From Microbotryum violaceum (Eukaryota): a stretch of DNA of 64,000 nucleotides. The position numbers were made by a program, and so were the translations under genes. Shown in pieces: positions 4,299 to 64,000 of the stretch (position 1 is the stretch's first letter; each line of letters opens with the position of its first letter). The stretch covers positions 3,162,001-3,226,000 of the forward strand of contig CDLV01000004.1 of assembly GCA_001244265.2 (NCBI GenBank), in the 5' to 3' direction. The notes beneath the pieces were generated by a model. That model did not search any database. It was not told the DNA's origin and worked only from the letters and a program-made list of their open reading frames with translations.

Positions 4299-4329
4299 AT
4301 GCGCCTCCGGCTGGGCTTTCGGGGGTCCT
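4299..4329. mobile_element. Right TIR of a 31-bp-TIR DNA transposon (copy 1; left end not seen in window)
   Basis: ATGCGCCTCCGGCTGGGCTTTCGGGGGTCCT matches the TIRs at 8099, 42319 and 49946; AAAATGTC-type subterminal motifs at ~4175-4290 as in 49840-49935. Confidence 0.85.
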
Positions 4330-8067: not shown

Positions 8068-8098
8068 GATGGCGTACGGCTGAGCGGGCAGGCACCTC

Positions 8099-9565
8099 AG
8101 GCCCCCGAAAGCCCAGCCAGAGGCGCATGCGAAAAAACGCCCTTTTTTGACCTTTTTGTCAATTTTTTTTACCCTATTTTGGCCCCAAAATGTCAAAATT
8201 TCGCATGCGCCTCGGAAATATTATCATAATGTGTTCTACATGCTCCAAACATCGCTCAAAAGTCCTCGAAAACGCGTTCCGAGCGTTTGCAGGCGCGCGG
8301 CGGCCTATCGAAAGTGACTGGTGTTGCGCGTGGCTCCACGCTTCAAACAAGCCTTCCTTGCTTTGCTGGCTGGCTCGCTGCTTCGTTGTCAGACTTCATT
8401 TTTGCTGAAGTTGAGCTCCTTGTTTCCGCGGTGGCATTTGTGCGGCTTGTAGAGGTTCTGCCGGCGGCACCTCGCAGGCCGGGCACGCTCCGAAGGGCGG
8501 CAAAGCTTTGCTCGGCATGTGCGCTCGTGCTGATTAGGCGCTCGTCCGGGTAACATGAGGTAAGGTCCGTGGTTGAACGATATGTAGTCGTTGACGGGCC
8601 TAATGACTCGATGACCTGTCGACCATCAATCATGCGGAACGGCGTAGTGCCATCAATGAGGTGTGTGGAATAACATGTTTTCTTGATGAGGCGAAGCTCC
8701 TGTACGACGACATTTGAGAGTAGAACCAACGAGGCGAGCGTGTCTTGGTTGCAGTGGTTTGTTGTCACTCTGCTGTAGATGTGTCGCACTGTAGGACACA
8801 AGACTTGTGTCAAACGAGAACTTCCTCAACTGCCACTCAAAACAACGCGCGTACTAACTCCGATAGACAGCGCTTCTTCTCCATAAACAGTTTGATCGCA
8901 GCTGAGTGAATGCATGCCACACTTGAGGCAAAGCAGATTAGAGATCCAATCTCCAATGGTGTGGCAGCGGTTACAGCTCCGTCAAGCGATCCAAAATGAG
9001 GATAGCGTTGTGCTAGCGCTCCATACTGCTTGTCTCTCTCAGGGAGCTTTTCCTAAAAGTATAGGACCGGCAAAACATTAGATCCAGTTGCCTTCGTTCC
9101 TAAATTCAGCAACAGCTCACTTGAATGCGGCCATCCTCAATATAGGCGTTCTTCTGAATCTCGTTCAAGCTCCTCGTCGTGCCCGCCATGTCTTCGCAGC
9201 GAGATGGTCCCATGGACTGTACCAACCCTTTCAAGACGCATGAATGTGTTGTACTGCGTCCTTTCTCTGTATTGCTAACCCCTACGCCTGCCTCTCCGCG
9301 AGTTGGGTCGCTCGATTCCATCCGCCTCCCTTGAGTAGAACAGCTTGATGGGCAATCAGGTTGGCCAGTTCAGCGAGAAATTGGTATCGCGAGCATCGAC
9401 AACTTGAGGCGGAAGTTTCAAGTGTGTGGGCTGTGTAGACCCAAATAAGCGTGAGCTTAGACCAAAATTTCGATAGTTGAGCTTGGTAGACGCACGATTG
9501 GTCGTGAGAAGCTGTTTGCCTTCTCAACGGCCTCGAGTAGATGATAAGGTCCAATAGTGGGTGAC
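8099..9565 (-). mobile_element. Left part of the 31-bp-TIR DNA transposon (copy 2) with C-terminal ORF remnants
   Basis: TIR AGGCCCCCGAAAGCCCAGCCAGAGGCGCAT at 8099-8128. ORF 8343-8813 (VRHIYSRVTT..LASLVLLSNVVVQELRLI..RMIDGRQVIESL) aligns with ORF 42685-42999, and 9106-9321 (HSCVLKGLVQSMG..GTTRSL) aligns with 43355-43759. Right end not found. Confidence 0.8.
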
Positions 9566-12049: not shown

Positions 12050-15826
<3,777 letters not shown>

Positions 15827-16020: not shown

Positions 16021-20483
<4,463 letters not shown>

Positions 20484-30258: not shown

Positions 30259-31918
30259 TTTTTTTTTTATTTTTTTATGAGAAGAGGACAAAAATGCCCT
30301 CGAAAGATAGCGAAAGGACGAAAATGACCTCGCTTCTTTTTATGAGGACAGAGATGCCCTTCTCTAAAGGACCAAAATGCCCTCGGATTCTCGACTTCTG
30401 TAATACTTGGTATATCAGCTCATAACCAAGAGGGTAGCTTTTTGTAGTCGTTGTGATGCTCATAACCAAGAGGGTAGCTTTTTGTAGTCGTTGTGATCAG
30501 CGCCGTATACTCAGAATCCCCAGAGATGCCGTGAGAATTCATATATCACGGTTGCAAAGTCAGGGCCCTATCGCGACTGAAGCGAGTCCAAGTCGAAAGC
30601 GAGCGATGAGTATAGACCGAGTGAATTCCATATGAAAAAGGTCAGCAGTAGAAGCATTGACAGTTTTGACGCCTTATGCTCAAATTCAAATGGTCTATCT
30701 ATCTATCGCATGTAACTCGGTTGTGTCCGGGGCCTTTGCAGAGACCACAGATCGTGTCGCGCTTGGACCTCTCATCCGCACCTCGGATCCTGCGTTTGAT
30801 CGGACGTCGTATAGGCTTGGAGAGATGTGACGGAATGATAATGACACCCTCTTCTTCGCCAGTTGAGTCACTATCGTCAACTTCACCATGACCTCATGAC
30901 GCTCACGAGGAAGACGATGCAACTTCCATTCGGCCCGAGATGAAACAGGTTGGAGCGGTGTCGCGTAAGTCTGCTCTTGCTGTCGCCGGTGTGCAGCAGC
31001 GATCGGTGACTGTGGGCTTCATTAAGAACAATGATGGTCCAAACACTGCATTCTCCTTTGGAGATAGCAGTGGCAGAGAAGGAGCACGGAGGATCTTGGA
31101 CACTCTTGCTCACGACGCGTGTCAGTCTTGCGAATGTCGAGCTGAAACTGGTGATCAAGCGCATATTGATGGCCCGCATCTGTGAGCTCCTTCTTTTCGT
31201 AGAGACTTTCCCCCTCCCTGAAAAAATGTTCCATTGTCGAAAGTCGGTGGTGACTTCGATGTCGAGGCGAGAATGCGGAAGGTGGCCAACCTCGATTCGC
31301 GAACTCGCGCGCCTCGACGCGTCGACGATCGATGAGGACCCCTGACTTTGCGACCGTGATATATGAATTCTCACGGCATCTCTGGGGATTCTGAGTATAC
31401 GGCGCTGATCACAACGACTACAAAAAGCTACCCTCTTGGTTATGAGCTGATATACCAAGTATTACAGAAGTCGAGAATCCGAGGGCATTTTGGTCCTTTA
31501 GAGAAGGGCATCTCTGTCCTCATAAAAAGAAGCGAGGTCGTTTTCGTCCTTTCGCTATCTTTCGAGGGCATTTTTGTCCTTTTCTCTTTTTTATTTGATA
31601 GACTTCATTAACCGCATAACTAGAAATCTTCGGAAAAGTCGGAGGGAATGCTGTTACGCACACTGGCAGAAGCTAGTAGTGTAGGATTCATTGACCCTGA
31701 ACCAGGATCAACCATACCCACTAAGACCCCCTTTGCAGTGGTGGCTTACAGAAACACTAGGCGACCCTTGGACTCCTGAATAGAGGCTCGAAGCCCCTCG
31801 AAGTCCGTTTCGGTGATCGGTTCCAAAAGATCCGACGAGAATCGGCGACGGCGACAGAGCTTCCAGATCGAGTGAAAGAAGAGGACTCGTAGTTCGACAA
31901 GTCGACGTTCCGAGCGAG
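30259..31918 (-). mobile_element. 3' fragment of LINE family B (~330 bp plus tail), split by a MULE in its tail
   Basis: 31587-31918 is the reverse complement of ~49428-49770; the T-rich tail continues at 30259-30278. Confidence 0.9.
30279..31586 (-). mobile_element. Internally deleted Mutator-like element (MULE)
   Basis: ~245-bp TIRs (30279-~30565 including a 40-bp duplication; ~31340-31586) starting GAGAA, TSD TTTTTTAT; internal FREGESLYEKKELTDAGHQYALDHQFQLDIRKTD..C..C.VWTIIVLNEAHSH resembles the MuDR N-terminal zinc DNA-binding domain. Confidence 0.85.
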
Positions 31919-32379
31919 TAGCCACCCCCCCCCCCCCCCACACCCTAGGCTGCAATACAATGACTAAGATGATCAATCATCTCGGAGCTGCTGGATGTCG
32001 GAGCTGCTGGATGTGTCCATATGGGGTGCGACACTTTGTATAGCATTCCTCGCCGTATTTCCTGCCTCAGCAACTTGACGGACAAGGAAGATCATTGACT
32101 GCCTTTCCAAACCATCCGTGAACCTGTCCTAAAAAAGCTAGTAGCACATCACCAAGTGTTCTCGCAAATGTCACTAGCCGCGATCATTATATCATTATAT
32201 ATATACATCCTTCCGTTCTACTCAAAGTGGCACGGCTTAGGATCGACGACCTCATTCCTCTTCTTGCAGCTGCTCCAAATAAACCATGACCAATGTGAGT
32301 GTTCTGGTGACAAGGAAGGATCCGATGCAGGTTGGGAGAGCCCATACCTTGAATTGACTCCAACATCAGATTCGTCTTG

Positions 32380-33985: not shown

Positions 33986-34795
33986 TTTGGGTGGAGTGCG
34001 TCACTGCGGGAGATTGGTCGATGATATCGGGCTCCCGCTGGCCCAAGTCTTTGTTCTGGGTAGACGTAGTCGAGGATAACTGGGAGGTGCCACGTGCAGG
34101 TGGGCTGGCATGTCGATTGGTTGGGTCCCAATGCGGGGGGGCCACCCTTATTCTGGAGTGTTGCATTCATCTGCTGACTGGACATGACGTATGCGAAACG
34201 AGTTTTGGAACCAAGGCAAGTATCGGTCGATGGCAACGGATGGCAGGAACTGGCGTGGCGCGGTGAACATGAGTAGAAAGTAGAAGTAGGCGTTGGGCGC
34301 GACGCGACGCGTCAAGCAGGCTACGTGCACCCAGACAAAATTGAGCAAGGTCGCTGGCGGCGATGCGCGGCTGTGCAGTGGATGCAGGGCCTACTTTGCT
34401 TGGGCACTGACACGCATGATCGGATCACCTGACCCGTTGTAGTACCCAGTAAAAGAAAGAGTGAATATTCGATGCCTGGGGGTCTTCGTCGAGCCCGTGG
34501 GCGGGGGCCCGAGTACGGGCACGATTTTCAACTACATGAGATCCGGGTGAGAGTGCTTCTTACCAAGGGTGGACGTACTTCGTGGTCATGTAAGAGGGCT
34601 CGTCAAGTTTCAGGGTGATACATGGCATACTATACGAGATACAGCGGATCGCCCCCTTACGTGGTAGATGCACCATCCTTAATTGGTAAACGCACCTTTT
34701 TCCGGGAGCAAACGCACCAGCTTGCGCGAAGAATGCACCATTTGTAAGTGAACTTTGCACCTTACTAGTACCGGGGTAGATAGGTCAAGCTTCGG

Positions 34796-35122
34796 TATAT
34801 TGATACAACCCGGACTTTTGAATCACCCACAAGAAAGGTGGCGTCGGTGACTCGGTCCGGGGAAAGAGAAAGAGGCACGAAGCTGAGTGTTGGGAGGCGA
34901 CTCGGGATCAATAATAATGACCACGGAGTCGCTCTTCCATAGTATGGCAGTATTGTTGAAAGGAGTGAAAAGAGCGGAGAGCTCAAGTCTTGGCACTCCT
35001 GCGTCCACTGGGCCACCCTTTCCGGGAAAGGTCGGCCAGTTTCGCTCAGGAGAAAGACGTCGGCGTTGTGGGATCGGAGACTGGAGAAAAGAGAGGCACG
35101 CTTACGGTCTTCATTGATTGAC
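34796..35122 (-). mobile_element. Internal endonuclease-domain fragment of LINE family B inserted in the right TIR
   Basis: Reverse complement of ~46081-46403; no tail, no TSD. Confidence 0.9.
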
Positions 35123-36228
35123 GGGTAAACGCGCGCGCGTAAATTGTAATTGCACCATTTGCTCGCGGCATTAACCCATTTTCTTTACCGATTACCGATT
35201 ACCGATTAGGCAGGCGGGCGAGTGAAGAGCGCCGTCGAACAAGCAGGTTGGCCGCCACGTATGATCGGGGCTCGAGAGCAAGCGGTACTGCCATGATTCA
35301 CGGCAGCAGGGACCCAGTGATAAACATGAGGGTACTCACCCGAGTGTAGTTGGGCTGGCAGAGCGATGAGGTGGTGTGCGAGCGATGAGGTGGTGTGCGA
35401 GCGACGAGGTGGTGGGAGAGGCGACTGGGAGAAGCATGCTGGCTCGTCAGAGGTCTTGGGGGACAAGATAACCCGCAAGCTGTGGATGTGTAGTTCGAGG
35501 ACGAGGTACAGGACCTAGCGTTTTCGAGGAAGGTAAGGGGGAAGGACAACCGCGGGCTTTTGGAGCGAGCTTGCAGAAGCAGTGAATGGTAGGAGGGAGA
35601 GAGGCGTTCGTCCTCTTCCGTCCTTTTATACCCCCCTCCATAAAACCTTTTCGAAGCCCATAAAACAAAAGCTACGACAAGTCGCGTAGGCCTCTTTTTC
35701 GAGGATCGTGCTTCCGGTATCACAGGCCGAGTTGGAACAAATTGGAAGTTGCTGGAAGACTGTTTGTGGAATGTGAAATACGTATTTTCCAATGGAGAGG
35801 AGGGGTCCGCGGCGCAAAGTCCGAAAGAGAGCGCTGTCGATCGAGGAGAAAGTCGGAAGCCGAGGACAAAGAGAGGAAATGTGGGGAGAGCGGACGAAAA
35901 CGAGTTAGGGGTTTTGTTCCCCTTGCGCGGGCCCAAACCATAGAGCCTCACCCGCCTACGGCTCGTCTACAAACAGCTCGCCCTTAGGTGGAGCTGTAGT
36001 CAAAGATGAAATTTTGGATTGGCCACAAAAAGGGCTTTTCGATTGATTAAACATTGCATGTGGTGTTTTGGTGCAGCAAGATGCTAAATCGGAAGGTGTG
36101 TGCAATGACAGCGAAAACGCTCGCCCAGTCGTCGCGCTCGGCGATTCTCGAGTGCGCGCACGACATAATCACCATTGGTGCAGTCTTTGGTCACCCTTCA
36201 GCGAGCAAATACGCTATACCGCAGGCCC

Positions 36229-40973: not shown

Positions 40974-42162
40974 TCACACAACACTCAGCGGCTCTATATC
41001 AGCCATACTAATGAGCACCTCATATGCGTCCCCTCCAGCCTCCTCATTCATCGCCTTGGCCAACCGAGGGGCAAAAGGCTTGAGCCACGGTCGTTCAGAC
41101 GCCGAGTGGTTCGTCAAGATGACATGGATGCCCTTGGCGTTGCAGAGCAGGGTGGCGTGGTGGTCGAGTTCACCACTGAGGTAGAGGTCCGCTTTGACAC
41201 CGGAGAGTACGGAGGAGCCTGGATGTGAAGAGGAGACAATGGGGCTCGCGGATCAGTCTCGAGCAAGTCTAGTCGCAGGATCGAGAAGGTCCGAACTCAC
41301 CGCTACCGGCGCAGATGGCGATCGTCTTGATCTTTTCAGCTCCATTCGGTGCCCATGCCGCTTGCGCTGTGAGCGAACAGAGTGTGAAGAGGGCTCCATC
41401 AGGATCAGCTTTTGCACCTCCACTTCGCAAGCATACACTTCGGAATGAGATGGCCCGGGCTGGCAACTCTGCACTCACCGTGATCCAAATTTAATGTGTG
41501 CTTGATCCTCTTCACCACTTCGTGCTTATTCAACGCGTGATCGAGCGTGACCAATCTTCCCAAACCGCAACCCTCGTGCCCCTCAGGTTGTTCCTTGCTC
41601 TCCTCAATCGCCTTGCTTGTCGCTCGTAGATCCAACGTGAAGGCGCTGGCAATATGATCGTTGACGCCTCCGATCGACGAATCGGAAGCGGTATGGATGC
41701 AGACGACGGGAATCCCGTGTGTTGAAAGTCGGAGGAGGGATGCTTGGAGAGGTACGGCGAGCGTCATGGATTTGAGGCCAGAGAAAATGGGCGGGTGGTA
41801 CGTCAGTACCGCCGCGGTTGATGACGACGCCAGAGCTTCTTCTGTCACGGCTGTTGTCACTGTAGACGATGGTGAGATAGCTCAGCATGCTGTGCGTGGG
41901 AAACTGACAGGAGGCATGTGCGAGCGATAACGGCCAGAGTTCACTCACGGTCGATACAGGTCAACACTTGCTTCTTTCCCTTGATTTCCTGACGAGGATA
42001 AGGTGCCTCGATCATAACGCCGACATTGTCCCATGATCTCGCGAGTTGTAGAGGCGTCAATCGCTCGACAGCAGCTAGAAGATGATTAAGCACGGGCGAC
42101 CGAACGGTGCTGAAGCTGCTCGAGCTGAACGAGCTGAACGAGGCGGCGGAGGTTGACGACAT
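40974..42162 (-). CDS. NIF3: NIF3/YbgI family protein (spliced)
   Basis: PLQLARSWDNVG, LTCID, TYHPPIF, IHTASD..GGVND, IAICAGSG, SGELDHH, TNHSASER motifs across GT-AG exons. Confidence 0.93.
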
Positions 42163-42684
42163 GGTACGGTAGATATTTGTCAAGCCACGATGCATGCGAT
42201 TCGAGGAAGTAGAGGTGAGTCAGTCTTTCAACGGACCCTTTGTTAATTGGATAGCGAGGCCAAGGAACCTAAAAATAGCTTGCATCGCCGTCACGCTCGG
42301 TCCGGCTGCGGAGCCGTGAGGACCCCCGAAAGCCCAGCCATAGGCGGCCTTCTAAAAACGGCCTTTTTCGAGGCAAAATGATCAATTTTTTTCCAGATTT
42401 TGACTGAAAATGTCCAAATATGAGGGCCGCCTAGTGCTGAATAATTTTTGAAAACTACTCTCCAAGCTCTACAATGCTCAGAATTTTTTCTGCGCTGCGC
42501 GCAGACTGCGTTTCCGCCCCGCCGCGATCCACTGCCGCGCTTGATGGGCCAAGCTCTGACAAAGCTTACCGCCATACGAGCATGAGCCAGGCTGACCTTC
42601 ATTCTTCATCATTGTTGACGCCCTTCGTCTTCGTCTGAACGGCCTCCTGGTGCAAGACAAGCAAGGGATGCTGCTCAAATTTCT

Positions 42685-44872
42685 TTAAGGTTCTGCAAAA
42701 AGCCTGTACCGTTGTTCTTGATTGACGGTGATGTGAATTTCCCCTTCATCACGCCAGTTAGATCGTGTGGAATCCTTGACCTCGTAGTTGATGCTTGACA
42801 AGTCCGGTTTGAGCGAATTTATGATACAGCGCCCATCGACTTGACGAATGCGCGTGTTGCCCTGATGAGACAGGTTGGAGTAAACTCCCGGAGCGATGAC
42901 ACGCAGCTCTTGTATCACGGCATTTGCGAAAAGAGCAAGAGAGTCAAGACTTTCAAAACTTTCATAAGTTGTGCTTGACTTCTTGTAAATGTTCCTCACT
43001 GCAGGGAAGGTGACAAGTAAAATGCGCAGTCACGGTGCTAGTCAGTCATGTGAAGTTTCCCCACACAAGTAGTAGTTTGGCATACCTATCCGATTGCCAG
43101 TCGTTCCCCGCATTGTTCACCCGAAGGCAAACCCATAGGTTCTTCTGGGATTCCATACACGACCAGTGTGTCCACCTTGAGAGGACGGGGTGCAGACACA
43201 TCACCATCAACAGCTCGGACGAGTACGTGGTTCGACATGATCTGACCATAGACCTCTTGTCGTCCTTTCATTTTGTCCTGTAACGTCGGAGTCAAACGTC
43301 AGCGCAGGAAAAGGCACGCCCCAGCTTGGGTCATGATACATCACGAATCAGCGACTAACGTGAGATCGTCCCTCGGTGATGATCGCAGTTGTCGCTTGCT
43401 CGTGCAACGTCTTCTCCCGGATATTTGCCCCTGAAGCGAAGGTTCCTCTCGTTCCCCACAGACTGTCGATACCTGTCCATTCCCATTGTCTCGACTATCC
43501 GTCGAAGTGCGGCAGAATGCACGTTGCCGCGGTGCTCGGTTCGGTTTTGGGCAAAAGGTTGATCTGACGCTACGTTCTGCGCGCCACCTTTAAACTTGAT
43601 CTTCTCGAGGTGTCGGCATTGGTGTGCACGTCGTCGAGCGAGCAAGCTGTCCAAGTCGAGTGTGGGGACAGAGTAGAGGGCCCCCTTCTCTAGAAGATCA
43701 CGCGGGTACGGGGGCGCTTCCCACTGGTTGGGAACACGGGTCTGTATCGGTAAATGCATCGATCAACCGATAATTGCGCTCACTCACGGATTGCTCATGC
43801 TCATGGCATGCTTCGGCCAGGATCGTTTGAAACTCTCGATCTTCTTCTTCTGCATCGGCTTGATCGAAGCCAGCATCAACAGCATCGCTGAGGGTTCAAT
43901 ATACGGTTGTTAGTGATCGTTTGTTGCTCTCAAACACCAAGCTACGTACATCGGAGCTTCCTGGTCAATGTCAAGCGCAGTCACCAAAAGAAGCGCGTCG
44001 CCTTCCTCGCGTCGCCTTCCTTGCGTCGCCTTCCTGGCGTCGCATAATACACGGTAATGGCTCCGATCCGACAAGACGGAGACGATCGAGGACTTGGTTC
44101 AGACCAGCCTCGTTCACGTTCGGAGGGACACCTTGGCGAACGGTCGACTCGGATGTGTTTCGGAGTACCAGGGGGAGCCTGCAGACACACGCAAGATTCT
44201 ACCCACATCAGTATCCAAGATCGACTCATGAATGAGCCCAGAGGATGCAAACTCACTGAGGATCTGTAGAAAGTCTTGGAGGCGTGTAGATCGACCTCGA
44301 AGATTGACGCGGTCGACAGCTGTCCAACGTATGCGAGTGAGGTGATGACGAGCACTCGCAAGCTCACGCTCCCGAATCGCGTCGGCGTTAGCTAATCGAG
44401 GAATCCATTCTTGAATGTTGTGGATGATATATCGATTTTTTTCTGCCTTGTCGAGATGGGCCCATAACGCCGAGGCATTAAGAGGAAGGCGCATTGACCG
44501 ACGACCCCGATACGGCGAATGCGATAGATCGATAGCCATCGAGATAAGCCAAGGATAGAAAGCTTTGATCGGAAAACTTTCGATAGATTGCTTCAAGGGG
44601 CGTGGCAGCGCGTCAAAATGTCGAGGGACATCTTTCGATAGAGCAAGTCGGAGAGAAGCGTCGGGCGCAGGTAGGTCGTACGCGAGTAGGTCAACGAGGC
44701 GTAGGTCGGCAACAGGGCTCAAGATTGCAAATTTCTCGGAGGTGAGAGCAAAGCTCGGTTTGATATTAATGATCACAGGCATTTTGAACACCTTTGTAGA
44801 CACCTTTGTAGAGTATAGAGTGCCAGTGATTGGGTGCCACGACCGCGGTCGGTGGCGTGTCGCGCGGGTCAA
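42685..44872 (-). pseudogene. N- and C-terminal remnants of the element's large ORF; catalytic core not visible
   Basis: ORFs 44114-44872, 43355-43759 and 42685-42999; the latter two are homologous to copy 2 ORFs; a 14-bp x3.5 tandem repeat at 43995-44043 lies near the apparent deletion junction. Confidence 0.65.
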
Positions 44873-44981
44873 ACTGAAATGGACTCGAATAGGATCTCAT
44901 GATTAATCGCAAATGCAGCACTTACCAACGCGCTCAAATCGCAAACAGCGCGACTGTTACCCGCGCGCAGCTGGGCCGGCT

Positions 44982-45074
44982 ACTCACTGAGCGGTGTATC
45001 GACCACAGAATCAATCTTACGCCTTTTACTTAAAATTGCCGTTGTTGATGCACGCCAACGCTCTTACTCCAAAT
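44982..45074 (+). ncRNA. U5: U5 snRNA-derived sequence (5' stem-loop I, truncated at the Sm site)
   Basis: Loop I CGCCTTTTACT (45020-45030) closed by CAATCTTA/TAAAATTG, then CCG internal loop, stem GTGTATCGAC/GTTGATGCAC and stem GAGCG/CGCTC; no intact Sm site or 3' hairpin follows. Confidence 0.88.
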
Positions 45075-48000
45075 CTTTCTCCTTTCCCTCTCCCCCTCTT
45101 CGGGGTGACTTAATTTTGACGCCGATTTGGCCGACTTGAAAAAGGAAACTCCTATTGGATGGACAACAACAACAACACCAACAACGCCAGCCATGCTGCT
45201 ATACCACCTCTTCGCCCTGACCCTCCCGATCCTCCCGGCCAAGCCCCCGCCACCACCACCAAATCATACTCCGCCGCGGTCGGCGCCCGCTCCGCTGCGA
45301 AGCACGGAAACGCCACCGTTCCGCGGCTCACATCCGTAAGGATTGCCCCGTCGCCCCGGCGTGCAAGTCCTGCGCGAGCACCTCGCACGCCACCCAGCAC
45401 TGCCCGGCCCGTCATGCGTCGAGCCCCAGGGACCCCCCACGTCACGTGCCCCGCAAGCCTCCACCGTTACCACCGCCGCCCCCGCCGCCGTGTCCAAGTC
45501 GATCTCCCCGGCCTCCGCCCACGACCGCACGACCAAAGAATGTCGAGTGGAACAGGATCTGGCTGCCCAGACTGAAGATCTGTCCAACAGAGCTCAGCCC
45601 GATTCTCTGTCAAAGAATGCCCGCCCCGAGTTCTCCTTCAATTTCCCTTGCAAAACTGCCACTCCTCCTGCCCCCCAGCCTGCCTCCAATCAGGGAATTG
45701 CCTACTCCCTAGTTGGAAAATCCTCCGAGTCCCCCAGCTCAGAGACCACCTCTCCATCCCCAAGCCCTCCTCCGGCCACGCCAAAGTCGATCATAACTCG
45801 ATCCAAGTCGATTGCCGCCCTCTCCAAGCCAGCCACTCGTGAAGCCCCTCCCACTGCGCCTGCCCTCGAAGCCTCCGAGCCGAGCCCCGAGCCGTCTTTG
45901 CCCACGCCGTTGCCCTCGGCCGCGCCCAAAGCCCAACCCGATGACGCCGACACTGACGACGAGGCCGACGAAGAAGCCAAAGACCAAGAAGCACCTCCTA
46001 AGGACGTGGAAGACGCTATGGACCAAGATGATGAGCACAACTAAAATCCCAAACGTGTCTTTTGTTGCTGCCAACGTGCAGTCAATCAATGAAGACCGTA
46101 AGCGTGCCTCTCTTTTCTCCAATCTCCGCTCCCATAATGCCGACGTCTTTCTCCTGAGCGAAACTGGCCAACCTTCCCCGAAAGGGTGGCCCAGTGGACT
46201 CAGGAGTGCCAAGACTTAAAGCTCTCCGCTCTTTTCACTCCTTTCAACAACACTGCCATACTTTGGGAGAGCGACTCCGTGGTCATTACTTTTGATCCCG
46301 AGTCGCCTCCAAACACTCTTCGTGCCTCTTTCTCTTTCCCGGACCGAGTCACCGACGCCACCTTTTGTGTGGGTGATTCAAAAGTCCGGGTTGTATCAAT
46401 ATACGCGCCTTCCTCCGACAAGCCAGACAAAAAACGCTTCCTCTCACACCTCAGCACCGCCCTCCGACAAGTTGTACGTGACAAACCCTCGCCGCCTGCG
46501 CTCCTAGTCGGGGGGACTGGAATTGTGTTGAGTCCCAGCCCCTCGATTCGGAGAACCAAAACGGAACGAATTATGGGGGTCAGGAGATGCGCGACCTTGC
46601 CACGGCCAACAATCTTTTCGACACCTATCGGCTCCATCATCCCAAAGGACGAGCCACGACGAATCACTCAGCGCCCGGCACGTGCCGTCGCCTTGACCGC
46701 ATCTATGTCTTGCCTGATTGGGTCAACCTCTTCCATGATCACAAAATTTGGGCTCCTGTCCTCAAATCGACGCACTCAATGGTTGTGGCACGGTTCCAAG
46801 TGCCGGGCGCAATTGACATCGGTCCGGGCAAATTCAAGCTGGGTTTGCACGTGATCGAGGGCGACGCGACCTGCGAGTACCTCACCTCCATTGTCCGCAC
46901 CCTTTACAACAAAGCCCTCCTCCAGACGCCCAACGATCCACCAGCAGCTTGGACGTCCACCAAACACCGCCTGCTGCCCGAGCTGCAGGCTCTGGCCCGG
47001 ACTTTCGCTCGGTTCCGTCGTGGCGGGTCGGAGCAAGAGAGGGCTGACCACTCGCGCTACGGCGCGGCCCTGCGGTCCCGCCTCGACCCATCTCTGGCGG
47101 GTCCCTCCTCCATCTTCATCCGCCTGCGCAAAGTGCGAGCATCCGACCTGATCCCTTCGCTCACGGTCAACGATGTTGTTCATTCCGGCCCTGTTTCGAT
47201 GCTTGGAGCGGCCAGCGACTACTTCGAGCGGGTCTATGAGGACCGCCCATCGATGACGCGGCCCTGAAGGCGATCATCGACGGCCTCGCTTCAACTCGCC
47301 TCTCCCCGCGGACTCACTCAAGCTCGAGGAAGCGTACCCGTTGGAGGAGATGACAAAGGCTCAAGCGGCGTGTAAGTCGAACTCTTCGCCAGGGCCTGAC
47401 GGCCTCCCGGTTGAGTTTTATTGCGCTACGTGGCCGGCCACTGGCCCAATTCTTCGAGACGTCATCAACTCGATCCCCACCGAGGCCCGTCAGCCTGGAC
47501 CTCTTCCCCGCAACACCGCCCACATCCATCTTATCCACAAACGCGGCGAGAGGGATCAGCTTTCGAACAAACGCCCCATATTGCTCATCAATGCGGCCGA
47601 GCGCATCATCTTGCAAGCCCACAACCAGCGCCTCGCTCCCTTGCTCGAGTCCCTGATCGGCCCAACCCAACGTGGCTTTGTTCCGAACCGTTGGATTGGC
47701 ACGAACATTGCTGAGGTCCAATGTCTCATGGACCCTGGACTTCCGGGCTCAACACCCGTGTCTGGCATGCTAGCAGTGATGGGCTTTGAAAAGGCTTACA
47801 ATCGTCTTTCCCACCCGTACCTTGATGCAGTCCTCTGCGCTGTTGGCCTCGGCCCAAAGCCCGCCAATGGTACCGAGCGACCTACACCAACCAATCTGCC
47901 TCGATCTTCCTCAACGGTTGGCTCTCTGCCACTTTCGACATCCTGTCGGGCGTTCGGCAAGGTGATCCTTTGGCTCCGTCTCTCTTCGTCCTGGCAATCG

Positions 48001-49777
48001 AAGGTTTTGCCTGTCAGATTCGATTGAGAGTCAAGGGCATCGATATTGCGGGCCTCCAAAACGTTTGCGAACTCCTTTTTGCCGACGACGCTTGCTGCGC
48101 ACTCCACAACCTCTCGGACCTCGACCACCTCAATTGGGCGATCGAGCTTTACGAACGGGCAAGTGCCAGCAAGCTCAGCAAAGTCAAATCTTTCCTCTAC
48201 CCCCTTGGAGCTTTTCGGGATCGGCCGATCGCCCCAGAGCTCGGGACCTGGCGTCTCAGCGATTCGCAGTTTCGCTACTACTTAGTATTCAGGTCGGGGT
48301 GGAGATCGCCGAGGATGCGGGCTGGGAAGATGCAAGGCCTCGACCGTCGCTCGGATACGCTCAATTCCGATGTACGATCTCCCATATGCAGCCAAGTGTT
48401 CGATCATTAACATCTACTGCTACACAAAGATCTTGTACTACAGCCGATTCCTCCCCGCGCCCAAGAGCGTTGTCAAGGAGATCGAGGAGGCCGTCATGCT
48501 CGCCATTCACGATCGGGCTTCGGATGGTACTCAGCAACGTCCGAAGGTCTCCCGGTCACGCCTCTGCACCCCTCTTGATCACGGCGGCTTCGGTTTGATT
48601 GATCTGCCTCAGCGTCTAGCAATCGATCACGCGAAGTGGGTCTTCCAGCTCCGGGCCCCGGACGGCTGCTTCACACACCACCTCTTTGACATCCGCATCC
48701 GCCTCCAGGCACCAAACGAACCAACCCCTTTCACCTTGTCCAGACCGGCCCCCGACCAGCATCGTTGCCCTTGGACTTGGATCTGGTGGGCTTACTTTTG
48801 CCATCCTCCCCCAAAGTGGGACCATGCGGTGAGAAAAACGACAAAACTTCTTCCTGCTCGTTGGGTCCGATACTTTGAAGCCTGGGCATTGGTGACCACG
48901 CTCAATCCCCCGGAACTCTCCAAGAGCCAGAACCTCGAGCAATGGGCGACGCACGTACTCTACTTCCCAGCGGGCCACGGAATACAACTCTCGGTAAACC
49001 CGACGCTTTTTCGAGGGCCCGATGGCGAGGTGATGACCCCGTCTTCGTTTGTGAACGCGTTCAAACGCCACCAAGTCTTCATCTTCCCCCCTATCTTCCC
49101 CAAGGGACACCAGAAGGTATTCGATCTGCCTGAGCAGCGCTGGAACGCTTGGTGGAAGGCTTTGCGCAAGGTTCGCCGGGTTCACTCGGACGCCGAGGAT
49201 ACCGGCCACCTTCTCTCCCTGGGGTCCCTCCATCCGGGAAGCCAAGTCGCCTCCCCAACCAGCCCACATCCCAACAATCGATCTACCTCCTGTGTGATGT
49301 GCCTCTCGGAAGCACCCGAGTGCCTGGTTCACCTCGCGGTCAGCTGCCCATTTGCCCGGCGCCTCTGGTCTGCTCTGTCCCCGACCCCCCACCCAGTCTT
49401 TGTGGACTTTGTATGCCCGGTCGTGTCTCGCTCGGAACGTCGACTTGTCGAACCACGAGTCCTCTTCTTTCACTCGATCTGGAAGCTCTGTCGCCGTCGC
49501 CGATTCTCGTCGGATCTTTTGGAACCGATCACCGAAACGGACTTCGAGGGGCTTCGAGCCTCTATTCAGGAGTCCAAGGGTCGCCTAGTGTCTCTGTAAG
49601 CCACCAACGGGGGTTTTAGTGGGTATGGTTGATCCTGGTTCAGGGTCAACCAGTCCTACACTACTGGCTTCTGCCAGTGTGCGTAACAGACAGCATTCCC
49701 TCCGACGTTTCCGAAGATTTCTAGGTATTAATATAATCATGCTGTTAATGAAGTCTATCAAATAAAAAAATAAAAAA
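45075..49777 (+). mobile_element. Near full-length L1/Tx1-type LINE (family B), frameshifted
   Basis: ORF1 (PPDPP, SYSAAV, CKSCASTSHATQHC knuckle; 45159-46044); ORF2 46028-49599 with APE (ANVQS, LSET, RRLDRIY), RT (PGPDGLPVEFY, QRGFVPNR, RQGDPLAP, LFADD) and C-terminal C..C..HL..C; tail AAATAAAAAAATAAAAAA. Confidence 0.95.
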
Positions 49778-50073
49778 TGCCCCGCGCCTCCAGCCTCCCG
49801 CTACCCTGGTCTGCGCTTCAAAGTTTGACCGGAGGGAGGAAAATGTCCATAAATGAGGTGAGCCTCAACCCATTTTGAGCCAAAAATGTCTAAATTTGCG
49901 GGCTGCCTAGCCGATTTTCGGGTCCCCAAAATGTCCAAACTTGCGGGCCGCCTCTGGCTGGGCTTTCGGGGGTCCTGAGCCGTGCGGAGCCGTGCGGATA
50001 GGGCACTCCGAGCTACGAGACCTGCGCATGCATTTAGTCAAATCGACCGCAGCGGCGGAATGCAGGGATCAAA

Positions 50074-50340
50074 ACCTCGTGAACGCCGTCCAAAGCATGA
50101 GACTAAACTTTCTTGTGCTCCCCTGTTATCCGGTTGGTAAACCCCTTTCGCTCCTCCGCTGATCCCAATTTGCCAAAGTCGAAATCGGAGGATGTCGTGT
50201 GAACGCATACAGCCAGGTGTGAGGCCAGACGCCGGCGGGGCCTTCGGGCCTTCTCTGATCTCGTCTAGTTTATCTCGTGGTATTTAGAGAGAAGAGGAAA
50301 TACCACTCAGATAGGAATTGGCTCGCGCACGGCGCTCCTC
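50074..50340 (+). ncRNA. Candidate structured ncRNA (unidentified)
   Basis: Nested helices with G-U pairs and a C(UUCG)G tetraloop read by eye; no family motif recognised. Confidence 0.3.
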
Positions 50341-50746
50341 ACCCCACGGGTGCCGGGCGCTTCCATCGAGTTATTACATTCCAATTCCCTTTCGTCCGGA
50401 TTGTCTGTATCTCGAGCGGGGTGGAAGGGGGTTGGTAAGATCGAGTGTCAATCGAGGTGTCACACACTGCAACACACCAGTTGCACTGTCGAGTCTACTC
50501 CTCTCTCGCAATTTCCTCCCGTCCCGTTCGATCGAATAGAAAGTCCCCGAGTGACCATGCTGACATGTTACAATCAAACAAGTTGAAGGACGTACACAAA
50601 GAGTTAAGTCCGCAAAAGTTGGAGAACATACACTAGAGAACTAAGTCCACAACATTACTTAAGGACGGAGGAAAAAAGAGAAGCAACAGACTATTCCTGG
50701 AATCGAATACCACGTTCCCATCTCAAACGACTCTTCCGTTCCCTTC

Positions 50747-61365: not shown

Positions 61366-64000
61366 CTATGCAGCAAAATCCCTCAACTTGGCATACTGCG
61401 TCGGTGCAAACTTGCCCTTCAACAACTTGATGATCCACAAGGGGGCAGCGGAGACGGCGACAATGAAGCCGACTTTCCAAATGAAGGGGAGCGACATGAC
61501 AAAGTTGAGATCTGTCAATCCAAATAAGTTTAAAAGAGGTCAGTATATCTGCACATTTGGAATGGGCGAACGGATAGCAAGACGCACCAAAGTATTCCGG
61601 AAGGAATAAGATCGACGTAACGTAAAGCCCCAACGTGATCACCTCGGAAAGAATCATCAACGTGTGCCATGTCGTGACTTCCACACCGACCATAATCAGT
61701 TCGTTCAACACGAGCGCGGTGAAGGAGATGGAGACGATATTGAGGAACTCGGATTCGAAGAGGACGAGGGAGGCGATCATAATGGTTCCGCCTGGGACAA
61801 GGAGTGGGAGACGGGTTAGTCTGCAAACGCAAGGGGTATATGCGTGTCGATGTCTCTCACCTTGGTAGATGGAAATCATGAGCCAGGTGAAGAAGGTTTT
61901 GTACGAAAGGGCTCGACCCTGACAAGATGGGAGGATGAACATCAATCTGTGTCCATGCACACCGTTCCCGCCAAGTCATGGACTCACCTTGGTCAACTCC
62001 TTGTACAACTCGGGTACAACAACGCGACGTCCTCATTCACATCCCGATCCAATACGAGGGAAAACACTGGCAACATCGTATACGCCGTCGCATACCCAAC
62101 CATCAACCAACCTTGATAAATCGCGATAGGCGAAAAGTAAAACACCGACGAGAACACGGCCTGAACGACAGAAATGATTAAACCACGGTGAATGACGAAT
62201 TGGGCCAATTTGGCCGAGCGTTTGTACGAGTTTCGACCGTGCCATACGAGGAGTTTGGTGAGGTAAGAGAATTGGTTGATGGAGAAATCGGCGGCGAGGG
62301 AAGCTTGACGACCTTCTTTGCCTACGATGCCGACGCCGACGTCGGCGGCTTGGATCATCGAGACGTCGTTACCACCGTCACCGATACAGCAGACGCGTTT
62401 CTTGGTGTAGGCTCGAATGAGACGGGCGACATCGGCTTTTTGCGTAGGTGAACAACGACACGCAACGACGGTCGACAGTTTCGTCGAGAGGGCGATGAAG
62501 TCTTCCCTGAAGTGTTCGATGCACAACTGCAAGGATTCGCCATCGATGACGAGGCAACAATCCAACTTGGTCCGAAGGAAGTCCAATTCGTCCCTCGCGT
62601 CCGCAGGTGACTTCAATTTGGCGACTTGATGAATGAACTGATTCCTCGAGACAAGCTTGGTCGAGATGGCAATACAAGTCGCGGTCTCGATCTTGTCCCC
62701 TGTCAGCATCCAAATCTTGATCCCGGCGTTGCGCAATAGCTCGATCGTCATCTTGACGTCGTCCTGCAACTTGTCCTCGACACCGGTCACCCCGAGCAAT
62801 TCCAAATCGCGTTCGAGGTGTTCGCCAATGACACGCTGAATCGAAGCCGCTCGATCGCCCAAAGCGACCTTGGCTTCCCGATGCGCCTCATCGAACCTCG
62901 CCCATGCCTCTTCAGACAACCTCTTGCGAGCCATCACGAGTGTCCTCAACCCCTCCCTCGCCATATTCCCACATTCCTCCTCGAGCCAATCGTTGTATAC
63001 GACGATTTTGGCCATCACTGCATCAGCACCCTTTTGGTAGAAAAAGATCTCGCCCGTCTTTCGATCACGAATGACGATGCCCATGCGTTTGGATTCTGAA
63101 GTGAAGGGGAACACTTCGAGGATATCAAAGGAGAAGGCTTGGCCTGTCGAGGTGCGGAGGGACATGGAGGTTCGGTCGCGGTTGGAGAGCGTCAGGCCGA
63201 CGGATTCGGTCCAGCGCACGATCGCGACTTCGTCAGGTGAGGAAGCTTGATAGGTGATAGAGCCGTCGTCGTCGACCGCGGGGGTGACCTGCAGAGAAGA
63301 AGGGCCGCATTAATGACGCCCGTTGACAGTAGCATGACGTCGAGGGACTGACGTTATGACACAAAGCCAGCGCCAGCACGACGTCCTTGACTCGCGAAGA
63401 CATATCTCGCCGTCCCCTCGTCGCCAACGCCACACCAGTCGTCAACGTGGTTCCCGCACGTCGTTCTGTAAGGCAAAACCAAGAAGGTTCAGACTTCATG
63501 CACAGCAAATTCAGACCCGATGTCCCTTACCTTCATCAGTCAGACCCAAGGCCATCGACAGTTGATGCGCGACTTCATCCATCGAGTCAACAGCATACGA
63601 CATGGTACCCAAGTGCAGCTTCTTCAACTCCATCTCTGCATTTCCCACCCCACCAAAAAGAGCCAATCAGCACTCACTCTAGCTCGAGCTCGAGCACCGA
63701 ACCACTTCCCCAACTGACCGTTCTGCGTCAACGTTCCTGTTTTATCACTGAGCAAATACTCGATCCGGCCCAACTCCTCCGGCAGCGTCGACGTGCGTAC
63801 GATCGTTTCAGGTATTTCAGAGTCGTTCATGATTTGGTGCGCGTAGACGGTCTTGCCCATGTCGAGGTTGACGCGGAGACTGTTGGAATCGGGCCTCCTA
63901 AAAGTCAGCTTGTGATGATCGTGAAGTTGTTTCGAGGCAGGTTCACTTACGAGATGGGAATGATGGAGGAGAAAAGAATGAGGAAGCGAAAGACATAGAT
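61366..64000 (-). CDS. NEO1: Neo1/ATP9-type P4-ATPase flippase, 3' part (5' end outside window), with apparent 1-bp deletion at ~62012
   Basis: [79 protein letters not shown]. Confidence 0.95.

What the first reader, a model, noticed from the sequence alone, without database searches (positions are those of the whole stretch)
44982..49777. LINE retrotransposon with a U5 snRNA-derived 5' head, joined at the Sm site
Seen: directly upstream of the LINE 5' UTR is a complete U5 stem-loop I (11-nt loop CGCCUUUUACU, CCG internal loop, three nested stems with G-U pairs). It continues as CTTACTCCAAAT and switches to LINE sequence where the Sm site (AAUUUUUG) should be. The rest of U5 is not found after the LINE tail, and the whole unit lies inside a DNA transposon, so this is not a native U5 locus. 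Known: Tx1-clade LINEs include snRNA-targeting families in animals (e.g. Keno at U2), and snRNA-L1 template-switch chimeras occur in mammals. Inference: either a fungal U5-targeting LINE whose source copy sits in a U5 gene and is transcribed from the U5 promoter, carrying the head along, or a template-switch chimera. I am not aware of a fungal example.
Basis: partly seen in the sequence, partly recalled or inferred. Interest (0 to 1): 0.9.

Follow-up and report, generated by a model that had tools for sequence, protein, structure and literature searches.

The report
U5 snRNA–LINE chimeric retrocopy in fungus
A dead copy of a fungal jumping gene (LINE) carries a complete copy of the spliceosomal U5 RNA fused to its front end, most likely because the element's reverse transcriptase jumped onto a U5 RNA; this kind of event is known in mammals and one other fungus.

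Summary
The U5 is real. Rfam finds one hit at 44988-45107 (56.6 bits, cut-off 40), and it covers the whole model (1-117). So the head is not cut at the Sm site: a fungal-type Sm-like site (45071-45080) and a 3' hairpin (45089-45107) are both present.

Contigs from four public runs contain LINE-free copies of the surrounding DNA transposon. These copies skip exactly 44983-49777, so U5 and LINE entered as one unit starting at the U5 5' end. It is neither a native U5 locus nor transposon cargo.

The transposon has 31-bp TIRs and a perfect 8-bp TSD. The LINE is an L1-like family (APE, RT, C-terminal zinc knuckle) that is abundant in Microbotryum. This copy is dead: a ~650-bp ORF1 deletion and several frameshifts.

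At least one other full-length copy lacks the head (P0009). A second, roughly single-copy joint links the U5 3' end (45117) to the last ~80 nt of the LINE.

Best reading (0.6): end-to-end template jump from full-length LINE RNA onto a 3'-extended U5 RNA. Rivals are read-through from a LINE sitting just downstream of a U5 gene, or a U5-headed sub-lineage. No genome was held, so head copy number is unresolved. Moderate interest.

The parts
42311..42318 (.). Left target-site duplication (GAGCCGTG) of the host DNA transposon
   Evidence: Identical 8-mer at 49977-49984, directly outside the TIRs
42319..44982 (.). Left part of the DNA transposon, with the 31-bp TIR at 42319-42349. Minus-strand ORFs (44114-44872, 43355-43759) have no Pfam match
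   Evidence: Inverted repeat 42319-42349 vs 49976-49946, 96.8% over 31 nt. Multi-copy in all 4 runs laid (table 2). Pfam gave 0 families for both ORFs
44983..45117 (+). U5 snRNA-derived head. 5' leader 44983-44987. Stem-loop I about 44988-45065, with loop 1 at 45020-45030 and the CCG internal loop at 45039-45041. Sm-like site AAAUCUUUCU at 45071-45080. 3' hairpin at 45089-45107. 10-nt trailer ACTTAATTTT at 45108-45117
   Evidence: Rfam RF00020 at 44988-45107, 56.6 bits, model 1-117/117. The 5' limit comes from the empty-site joints. The 3' limit comes from the second joint at 45117 (table 5c) and from P0009 homology fading at about 45129-45132. The Sm variant matches L050
45118..49777 (+). Decayed full-length L1-like LINE. 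Short 5' UTR at 45118-45158. ORF1 ATG at 45159, with two CCHC knuckles and a ~650-bp internal deletion at 45317/45318. ORF2 with APE about 46090-46740, RT about 47530-48190, C-terminal zinc knuckle about 49282-49369, and stop at 49599. 3' UTR and A-rich tail end at 49777
   Evidence: tblastn of the intact family protein P0011 maps aa 1-1628 across 45159-49554 with repeated frame changes. Pfam finds RVT_1 and zf-RVT weakly in the window ORFs, and APE+RT+zf-RVT in the intact relatives. The deletion shows as loose ends at 45316/45318 (table 7) and as residues missing relative to P0004 and P0011
49778..49976 (.). Right part of the DNA transposon, with the TIR at 49946-49976
   Evidence: Empty-site contigs join it directly to 44982
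49977..49984 (.). Right target-site duplication (GAGCCGTG)

Best explanation
This is a dead chimeric retrocopy made in one retrotransposition event. An L1-like LINE of Microbotryum nicked a TA-containing site (GGCTA^TGCCC) about 200 bp from the end of a DNA transposon. It reverse-transcribed its own full-length RNA from the A-rich tail to its very short 5' UTR. On reaching the 5' end of that template, the reverse transcriptase jumped to the 3' end of a U5 snRNA molecule, probably a 3'-extended form ending in ...ACUUAAUUUU. It copied that RNA to its 5' end, and the composite cDNA was integrated.

Shown: the U5 identity and its completeness by the Rfam model; insertion of U5 and LINE as one unit; the unit starting at the U5 5' end; same orientation and direct joining; other copies lacking the head; a second U5-3'-end/LINE joint elsewhere.

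Inferred: the template jump itself, and that the 10-nt trailer belongs to the U5 RNA. The retrocopy has no snRNA promoter, because the insert starts at the U5 5' end. Its Sm-like site lacks the G, and its LINE ORFs are now broken. I therefore expect no function for the head here.
For: (1) The U5 match is full length: RF00020, 56.6 bits, model 1-117/117. Its Sm-like AAUCUUUC matches the AAUCUUUG Sm site of a true fungal-type U5 (L050, 69 bits).

(2) Empty-site contigs show a single insertion. The joint 44982->49777 (with TAT between) is seen in 3 of 4 runs laid (X1, X10, X11). A diverged empty form, 44966->49793, is seen in 3 of 4 (X6, X10, X11). So the inserted block is 44983-49777, beginning 5 nt (or 6, counting an ambiguous A) upstream of the first Rfam-aligned base.

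(3) The head and the LINE are directly joined in the same orientation, and the block ends in an A-rich tail. These are features (i) and (iv) of the published chimera definition (PMC2104539, Background read).

(4) The head is not intrinsic to the family. P0009, the 1 of 15 ORF1-N-terminus hits with an upstream extension, reads from copia-like sequence into the last ~30 nt before the ATG, with no U5. The depth bin holding the head is 0.12-0.52 of the LINE 5' bin 45372-45652 in the four runs (table 2).

(5) A second joint in X1, at about single-copy depth (198.8 against 218-233 for unique flanks), links 45117 to the last ~80 nt of the LINE with 1-2 nt of possible microhomology (table 5c). A random deletion end would fall in the 22-nt zone between the Rfam U5 end (45107) and the P0009 limit (~45129) about 0.5% of the time. 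A fixed U5 3' end is therefore the simplest reading. This second chimera has the classical form: full small RNA plus 5'-truncated LINE.

(6) From established knowledge (recalled): R2 and L1 reverse transcriptases jump most efficiently from the 5' end of one template to the 3' end of another.
Against: Two of the five published defining features are not met. The LINE part is full length rather than 5'-truncated, and no target-site duplication longer than 1 nt is visible at GGCTA|...|TGCCC.

Human U5/L1 chimeras are 3'-truncated in U5, at positions 78, 83 and 98 of 116 (PMC4476161, passages read). Here the U5 is complete and carries 10 extra nt.

AAUUUUGA, straddling the joint at 45112-45119, is by itself a perfect Sm-consensus match (consensus recalled). 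That leaves open a reading in which the real Sm site is there and the U5 is cut within it.

The native Microbotryum U5 gene could not be examined. No genome was held, and the metagenome scan for the joint found nothing.

The head's copy number could not be separated from that of the transposon in the depth bins. A sizeable minority of head-bearing copies is therefore not excluded.
Confidence: 0.6

Rival explanations
1. Read-through, or 5' transduction. A full-length copy of the LINE sits about 10 nt downstream of the 3' hairpin of a native U5 gene. Transcription from the U5 promoter runs through into the LINE, and this U5-LINE RNA was retrotransposed in cis into the DNA transposon. The 10-nt trailer would then be the 3' flank of the U5 gene.
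For: The insert starts at the U5 5' end, as a promoter-defined transcript would. The LINE has almost no 5' UTR of its own, about 27-41 nt before the ATG, so dependence on upstream promoters is plausible. The trailer ACTTAATTTT is AT-rich like this LINE's insertion site. It also resembles T-rich boxes seen just downstream of true U5 genes in metagenome loci, but those loci were selected by a pattern that demands such a motif, so this is only a lead. In humans, chimeras that carry near-full-length L1 come from 5' transduction rather than from small-RNA switches (bioRxiv 10.1101/2025.02.02.635956, passages read).
Against: The second joint at the same U5 position, with a LINE cut to ~80 nt (table 5c), would need a second independent insertion at the same nucleotide beside a U5 gene. 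That implies site specificity, which the family as a whole does not show: P0009 lies in copia, and fragments lie at 31580-31926 and 34782-35169 in other contexts. No such master locus could be looked for, because no genome was held.
Confidence: 0.17
2. A propagating U5-headed sub-lineage, or a nascent SINEU-like family. After a founding fusion, elements carrying the U5 head were themselves copied. This gave several head-bearing full-length copies and short derivatives made of the U5 head plus the LINE tail.
For: A second head-to-LINE-tail joint exists in X1 (table 5c). A further joint, 45183->49731, would be a 5'-end-plus-tail deletion derivative (table 5; side only 22 nt). Rough arithmetic on the mixed depth bin 44810-45090 allows a head depth of several to about 20 times single copy in X1, X10 and X11, if the transposon depth there is taken from table 3. 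Precedent: the SINEU families with U1/U2 heads, thought to be founded by template switching (PMC4494074, Discussion read).
Against: The depth arithmetic is unreliable. Bin means and per-site depths disagree by 2-4 fold, and native U5 genes also contribute. Both extra joints are at about single-copy depth and are seen in only 1 of 4 runs. The head gives no internal promoter, so a head-bearing copy has no obvious transcriptional advantage. No annotated or predicted protein carries a translation of the head, although that search is weak.
Confidence: 0.12
3. The U5 is cut at its true Sm site, which is the reader's idea moved 40 nt downstream. The native U5 would have an extra pyrimidine-rich linker and small hairpin, with its Sm site at AAUUUUG (45112-), and the RT would have switched internally within that site.
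For: AAUUUUGA at 45112-45119 fits the Sm consensus perfectly, whereas AAAUCUUUCU lacks the G (consensus recalled). Human U5/L1 chimeras are truncated around the Sm region (PMC4476161, passages read). The 3' hairpin contributes only about 4 bits to the Rfam score.
Against: Rfam aligns the Sm position and the 3' hairpin at canonical spacing, with high posterior probability across the Sm stretch. True U5 genes with an AAUCUUUG Sm site exist (L050; L044). Of the 30 loop-plus-stem U5 candidates recovered by a pattern designed to catch a long-linker architecture, every sequence printed had its Sm site at the canonical place, and the distal AATTTT lay beyond the 3' hairpin (by eye).
Confidence: 0.08
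4. A native U5 locus hit by a U5-targeting LINE, or U5 carried as cargo of the DNA transposon.
For: Tx1-clade LINEs that target snRNA genes exist in animals. Keno targets U2, and a figure legend in PMC4494074 lists U5 among Tx1 targets (passages read).
Against: LINE-free transposon copies lack the U5 as well. The joints skip 44983-49777 as one block in all 4 runs, in one form or the other. The U5 therefore lies inside a TSD-flanked transposon only in the copy that also has the LINE. No U5 remainder follows the tail.
Confidence: 0.02

Closest known systems
snRNA/LINE-1 template-switch chimeric retrocopies of mammals (U6/L1, U5/L1, U3/L1)
   Same: A small nuclear RNA copy is fused directly, in the same orientation, to the 5' side of a LINE sequence and inserted as one unit ending in an A-rich tail. 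The small RNA starts at its own 5' end.
   Different: In mammals the L1 part is 5'-truncated, and U5 segments are 3'-truncated at positions 78, 83 and 98 of 116 (PMC4476161 passages; bioRxiv 10.1101/2025.02.02.635956 passages). Here both partners are full length, the U5 carries 10 extra 3' nt, no TSD is visible, and the host is a basidiomycete fungus.
Magnaporthe grisea chimeric retroelements (WEIRD/Mg-SINE fused to MGL LINE; MINE)
   Same: A fungal LINE makes bipartite chimeras by template switching, with a full-length non-coding RNA at the 5' side (PMC2104539, abstract and Background read).
   Different: The 5' partner there is WEIRD or a SINE, not a spliceosomal snRNA. The MGL parts are 5'-truncated at hot spots, and those chimeras are flanked by direct repeats.
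SINEU (U1/U2 snRNA-headed SINEs of crocodilians) with Tx1-Mar LINEs
   Same: snRNA-derived heads are added to the 5' end of retroposons, probably by template switching, and the partner LINEs and SINEs sit preferentially inside a DNA transposon (PMC4494074, abstract and Discussion read). Here too the chimera sits in a DNA transposon, and one short joint of U5 head plus LINE tail exists.
   Different: SINEU are multi-copy, short, non-autonomous families. Here only one full-length chimera and one ~single-copy short joint are documented. A preference for the transposon is not shown.
Target-specific Tx1-clade LINEs (Keno in U2 genes; Tx1L in Tx1D)
   Same: A LINE of L1/Tx1-like architecture (APE, RT, C-terminal zinc knuckle) is found next to snRNA sequence and inside a DNA transposon.
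   Different: There is no fixed insertion within a native snRNA gene, no snRNA remainder after the tail, and most copies lie elsewhere. Clade membership was not tested by phylogeny.

Membership tests
U5 spliceosomal snRNA (Rfam RF00020) | Covariance-model score at or above the curated gathering score | tested here: met
   56.6 bits against 40; E=1e-06 for the window; model 1-117/117
U5 spliceosomal snRNA (Rfam RF00020) | Invariant loop 1 (GCCUUUUAC within an 11-nt loop) on stem-loop I, with the CCG internal loop | tested here: met
   CGCCTTTTACT at 45020-45030 and CCG at 45039-45041
U5 spliceosomal snRNA (Rfam RF00020) | Sm site between stem-loop I and the 3' hairpin | tested here: inconclusive
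   AAAUCUUUCU at 45071-45080 is at the right place and matches the AAUCUUUG variant of the true U5 L050. It lacks the G.
U5 spliceosomal snRNA (Rfam RF00020) | 3' terminal hairpin | tested here: met
   CCCC/GGGG hairpin at 45089-45107, aligned to model 97-117. It adds only about 4 bits.
Functional (native) U5 gene | Own upstream promoter in a stable genomic locus | tested here: not met
   The sequence starts at the insertion boundary inside a DNA transposon. Empty copies lack it.
LINE template-switch chimeric retrocopy (five features listed in PMC2104539) | (i) The 5' part is a full-length copy of a cellular RNA | tested here: met
   Full Rfam model. The insert begins 5-6 nt upstream of model position 1.
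LINE template-switch chimeric retrocopy (five features listed in PMC2104539) | (ii, iii) The 3' part is a LINE that is 5'-truncated at variable positions | tested here: not met
   The LINE here runs from ~41 nt before the ORF1 ATG to the tail. A second joint in X1 does carry a LINE cut to ~80 nt (table 5c).
LINE template-switch chimeric retrocopy (five features listed in PMC2104539) | (iv) Both parts are joined directly in the same orientation | tested here: met
LINE template-switch chimeric retrocopy (five features listed in PMC2104539) | (v) Flanked by short direct repeats | tested here: not met
   Empty site GGCTA|TGCCC (or GGCTATATATGCCC). No duplication longer than 1 nt is seen at the filled site. 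The other family fragment in the window also shows none.
snRNA-gene-targeting Tx1-type LINE (Keno-like) | Insertion at a fixed position of the native target gene, with the rest of the gene or its flank after the LINE tail | tested here: not met
   The tail is followed by transposon sequence. There is no further U5 hit at E<=1 in 30000-52000.
snRNA-gene-targeting Tx1-type LINE (Keno-like) | Most copies of the family are associated with the target | tested here: not met
   P0009 lies in copia-like sequence. The two other fragments in the window have no U5. The head bin is 0.12-0.52 of the LINE 5' depth.
snRNA-gene-targeting Tx1-type LINE (Keno-like) | RT groups within the Tx1 clade | not tested
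   No reference RT set was available. Only the architecture (APE+RT+zf-RVT) and the best solved relative (human L1 ORF2p at 4.8e-36, against R2 at 7.1e-11) are known.
SINEU-like snRNA-headed retroposon family | Many copies share one head-body joint at different sites | tested here: inconclusive
   One extra joint at about single-copy depth in 1 of 4 runs. The depth bins cannot resolve the head copy number.
TIR DNA transposon | Terminal inverted repeats, a target-site duplication, and multiple copies | tested here: met
   31-bp TIRs at 96.8% identity; 8-bp TSD; multi-copy depth, and an internally deleted form (joint 42480->49928). No transposase domain was found, so the superfamily is not assigned.

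The most novel reading that the evidence does not exclude
In Microbotryum, a 3'-extended U5 snRNA ending in an oligo-U run is a recurrent acceptor for template jumps by this L1-like LINE, much as U6 is for human L1. The jumps yield coding-capable U5-headed full-length elements at birth, and also short retroposons made of the U5 head plus the LINE tail. That would be the raw material of an snRNA-headed (SINEU-like) family, and a route by which a LINE with almost no 5' UTR acquires new 5' sequence, seen for the first time in fungi.
Probability: 0.2. Interest if true: 0.65.

Novelty: new member of a known kind. Interest (0 to 1): 0.35.

Why it matters
Small-RNA/LINE chimeras record reverse-transcriptase template jumping in vivo. 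Nearly all documented cases are mammalian and pair a small RNA with a 5'-truncated L1. This case has a complete U5 joined end to end to a complete LINE in a basidiomycete. If it is a template jump, it shows the same mechanism at work in a distant L1-like lineage, at the template's very 5' end as the in-vitro work predicts. It also points to a possibly 3'-extended U5 species as the acceptor. If the head proves recurrent, Microbotryum, with its many sequenced species, would be a good system for watching the birth of snRNA-headed retroposons. On present evidence it is a single dead retrocopy of a known kind.

Tried and rejected
- The whole genome of the window is not held, so the decisive genome-wide census of U5 heads and LINE 5' ends could not be done.
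- Expression: the look-up of sequencing runs listed no holder on record as RNA. The run labelled 'RNA?' (X11) is a guess, so I draw nothing from it about transcription.
- A metagenome scan for the exact 23-nt U5/LINE joint gave 0 hits.
Only 30 had 6 or more of 7 base pairs flanking the loop; the rest look like chance matches in unrelated contigs. None resembled the window's U5 closely enough to stand in for the native gene. Rfam was run on 4 of the 30, and all 4 were U5 above the cut-off.
- I looked for predicted proteins that read through the head. The 78-aa plus-strand frame gave one hit, a spurious repeat protein. The 77-aa minus-strand frame gave none at E<=0.001.
- Proteins carrying the ORF1 N-terminus: 14 of 15 start exactly at the ATG and say nothing about the 5' flank.
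- Depth-based copy number of the head was rejected as unreliable. The bin mixes transposon and U5, and bin means disagree with per-site depths.
- In-window test of other 5' ends: the two other family fragments (34782-35169 and 31580-31926, minus strand) are both 5'-truncated.
- Both insertions have a 5' flank ending in GGCTA. This is noted as a possible target preference, but the 3' side of the second copy is ambiguous and other tails are followed by different sequence (table 7), so I make no claim.
- Supplementary tables of the papers were not consulted. They may list human U5/L1 chimeras in more detail.

Full report
WHAT IS THERE

The stretch 44983-49777 is a single inserted block inside a DNA transposon.

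The transposon runs from 42319 to 49976. It has 31-bp terminal inverted repeats (42319-42349 against 49976-49946, 96.8% identical). A perfect 8-bp target-site duplication, GAGCCGTG, lies at 42311-42318 and 49977-49984. Its minus-strand ORFs have no Pfam match (0 families for 44114-44872 and 43355-43759), so I do not assign a superfamily.

THE U5 HEAD

A scan of the whole window against Rfam gives exactly one hit above gathering score. It is U5 (RF00020) at 44988-45107 on the plus strand: 56.6 bits against a cut-off of 40, E=1e-06, covering model positions 1-117 of 117 and not flagged as truncated. A permissive scan of 30000-52000 (E up to 1) again gives only this hit, so no further U5 piece follows the LINE tail.

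- The 11-nt loop CGCCTTTTACT is at 45020-45030 and the CCG internal loop at 45039-45041.
The alignment continues instead. AAAUCUUUCU (45071-45080) is aligned to the Sm position with high posterior probability, and a CCCC/GGGG hairpin (45089-45107) is aligned to the 3' stem-loop.
- The hairpin is worth only about 4 bits: the hit scores 52.6 bits when the scan stops at 45088.
- The Sm-like site lacks the usual G.
- A metagenome scan recovered bona fide U5 genes of fungal type whose Sm site is AAUCUUUG: L050 (69 bits, full model, aligned by cmscan) and L044 (54 bits; sequence read by eye). The window's linker and Sm stretch resemble L050's closely.

I therefore read the head as a complete U5 copy with one change in its Sm site, not as a U5 cut at the Sm site.

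ONE INSERTION, NOT A NATIVE LOCUS AND NOT CARGO

No genome is held for this window. I therefore laid Logan contigs of four public runs (X1, X6, X10, X11; 4 of 4 laid, at 85% likeness) on 42000-50400.

- Unique flanks have depths of about 218-233 in X1. The transposon body is many-fold higher and the LINE higher still, with the 3' bias typical of LINEs (table 2).
- Contigs that join 44982 directly to 49777, with TAT between, occur in X1, X10 and X11.
- A diverged empty form, 44966->49793 with an equivalent bridging sequence, occurs in X6, X10 and X11. X1 has a 44982->49793 variant (tables 5, 5c).
- LINE-free copies of the transposon therefore read GGCTA(TA)nTGCCC at this point and lack the U5 as well as the LINE.
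- The inserted block thus begins at 44983, or 44982 if the ambiguous A is counted. That is 5-6 nt upstream of the first Rfam-aligned base, at about the 5' end of a U5 RNA. It ends with the A-rich tail at 49777.
- No target-site duplication longer than 1 nt is visible.

THE LINE

The intact ORF at 48370-49599 finds 54 proteins at E<=0.001. Forty-four of them are named as Microbotryum proteins (M. silenes-dioicae, M. saponariae, M. intermedium, M. lychnidis-dioicae), at up to 97% identity. The other ten are unnamed metagenome or Logan proteins at 31-41% identity.

- Intact relatives have Exo_endo_phos, RVT_1 and a weak zf-RVT match, with no RNase H.
- The best solved relative is human L1 ORF2p (4.8e-36), against R2 at 7.1e-11.
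- ESM-Atlas neighbours have the same three families.
- ORF1 (MDNNNN..., ATG at 45159) has two CCHC knuckles.
- The window copy is dead. Relative to P0011 and P0004 it lacks roughly residues 54-250 of ORF1. This ~650-bp deletion at 45317/45318 also shows as loose ends on both sides, table 7. The copy also changes frame repeatedly along ORF2, in agreement with the single-base indels, table 4.

WHERE THE LINE STARTS, AND WHETHER OTHER COPIES HAVE THE HEAD

Fifteen proteins carry the ORF1 N-terminus. Fourteen start at the ATG and are uninformative. One, P0009, has a 58-residue extension that reads from copia-like sequence (ADILTKPL...) into ...RRRLEKGNSYW before the ATG.

- Codon by codon, its agreement with the window fades at about 45129-45132. 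That full-length copy therefore has no U5 head, and the LINE's own 5' UTR is only about 27-41 nt.
- The depth bin that contains the head (44810-45090) is 0.12, 0.46, 0.52 and 0.41 of the LINE 5' bin 45372-45652 in X1, X6, X10 and X11. The head is therefore not on most full-length copies.
- That bin mixes transposon and U5, and bin means disagree with per-site depths. The head's copy number (one, or some tens) is unresolved.

A SECOND JOINT

In X1, one contig at about single-copy depth (198.8) runs up to 45117. It then has 14 letters that match the family's sequence at about 49697-49710, as also seen in the window's second copy, and continues from 49715 (table 5c).

This is the U5 head, including the 10-nt trailer ACTTAATTTT, joined to the last ~80 nt of the LINE, with 1-2 nt of possible microhomology. 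A random deletion end would fall between the Rfam U5 end (45107) and the P0009 limit (~45129) only about 0.5% of the time. I therefore take 45117 as a real, reused U5 3' boundary. I could not see the flanks of that contig.

MECHANISM

The best-supported explanation (0.6) is an end-to-end template jump during target-primed reverse transcription:

1. The LINE's RT copied its full-length RNA.
2. At the 5' end it jumped to the 3' end of a U5 RNA and copied it to the cap-proximal end.
3. The composite was integrated at a TA site in the transposon.

This accounts for several observations:
- the complete U5;
- the insert starting at the U5 5' end;
- direct same-sense joining;
- the A-rich tail;
- head-less sister copies;
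- the second chimera, which has the same U5 3' end and a truncated LINE.

The trailer suggests the acceptor was a 3'-extended U5 ending in an oligo-U run. I recall that such La-bound pre-snRNAs are known in budding yeast and that the 3' end of U6 is similar. This is recalled, not tested.

Three points weigh against this reading. Two of the five published chimera features (PMC2104539, Background read) are not met: the LINE is full length and there are no flanking repeats. Human U5/L1 chimeras have 3'-truncated U5 (PMC4476161, passages read). In humans, near-full-length L1 chimeras come from 5' transduction with mRNAs rather than from small RNAs (bioRxiv 10.1101/2025.02.02.635956, passages read).

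RIVALS

- Read-through from a U5 promoter into a LINE lying 10 nt downstream of a native U5 gene (0.17). This fits the tiny 5' UTR and the trailer, but needs two insertions at the same nucleotide.
- A propagating U5-headed lineage or nascent SINEU-like family (0.12). It is not exclusive of the founding jump. The precedent is PMC4494074 (Discussion read).
- U5 cut within a true Sm site at 45112-45119 (0.08).
- A native U5 locus, or transposon cargo (0.02). The empty-site joints refute this.

COMPARISON AND NOVELTY

This works like the mammalian snRNA/L1 chimeras and the Magnaporthe WEIRD/MGL chimeras. It differs in pairing two full-length partners, in being U5 in a basidiomycete, and in lacking a TSD.

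It is not a Keno-like snRNA-targeting LINE, since two defining features were tested and not met. Tx1-clade membership was not tested.

My literature searches listed no report of an snRNA-LINE chimera in Microbotryum (listings only). Supplementary files were not seen.

I file it as a new member of a known kind, of moderate interest. The interest would rise if the genome-wide census shows recurrent U5 capture.

Noticed in passing
window 31580-31926 (-) and 34782-35169 (-): Two further fragments of the same LINE family (90-93% identical to 49427-49775 and 46081-46404). They are separated by 2.9 kb of unrelated sequence. The 3' fragment is 5'-truncated, preceded by a G-run, and has a 5' flank ending in GGCTA, the same five letters as the main insertion's 5' flank. 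This may hint at a target preference.
   Followed up: partly
window 31480-31600 (-) and 49860-49950 (+): Short repeated motifs of the type AAAATGCCCTCG and AAAATGTCCAAAYTTGCGGG lie next to both LINE tails. They look like subterminal repeats of DNA transposons.
   Followed up: no
window 12300-15400 (+): A second, different LINE-like element. It has ORFs at 12688-14244 and 14424-15377 with no Pfam hit, and only weak tblastx/tblastn similarity (about 35%) to the RT region of the family studied.
   Followed up: no
window 16644-20456 (-): A copia-type LTR retrotransposon: RVT_2 at 1.9e-59, plus Retrotran_gag_2, Pol_BBD and gag_pre-integrs.
   Followed up: no
window 61993-63165 (-): An ORF with P4-type (phospholipid-translocating) ATPase domains. 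It is the only clear host gene seen in an otherwise transposon-rich window.
   Followed up: no
window 4267-4329, 8096-8125 and 42319-42349: Further copies of the transposon's terminal repeat. Public runs also hold an internally deleted form of the transposon (joint 42480->49928, X1), and the terminal ~100 bp are far more abundant than the body. This suggests MITE-like derivatives.
   Followed up: partly
metagenome loci L003, L006, L026, L031, L037 and about 20 others: A large group of near-identical-loop U5 genes shares a conserved AGTTYAAATTTTT-like box about 10 nt after the 3' hairpin, probably a 3'-end formation signal. The loci were selected by a pattern that requires AATTTT there, so its frequency cannot be judged.
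   Followed up: no
L087:186-2772: A metagenome contig with a U5 gene (929-1031, 55.5 bits) embedded in a dense cluster of 11 tRNA genes plus a tRNA-Sec.
   Followed up: no
window 44983-49777 against public runs: Differences between this copy and the run contigs are dominated by transitions, with the window carrying T or A where the contigs carry C or G more often than the reverse (in X1: T>C 45 and A>G 39, against C>T 34 and G>A 25). This is consistent with C-to-T hypermutation of this copy.
   Followed up: no
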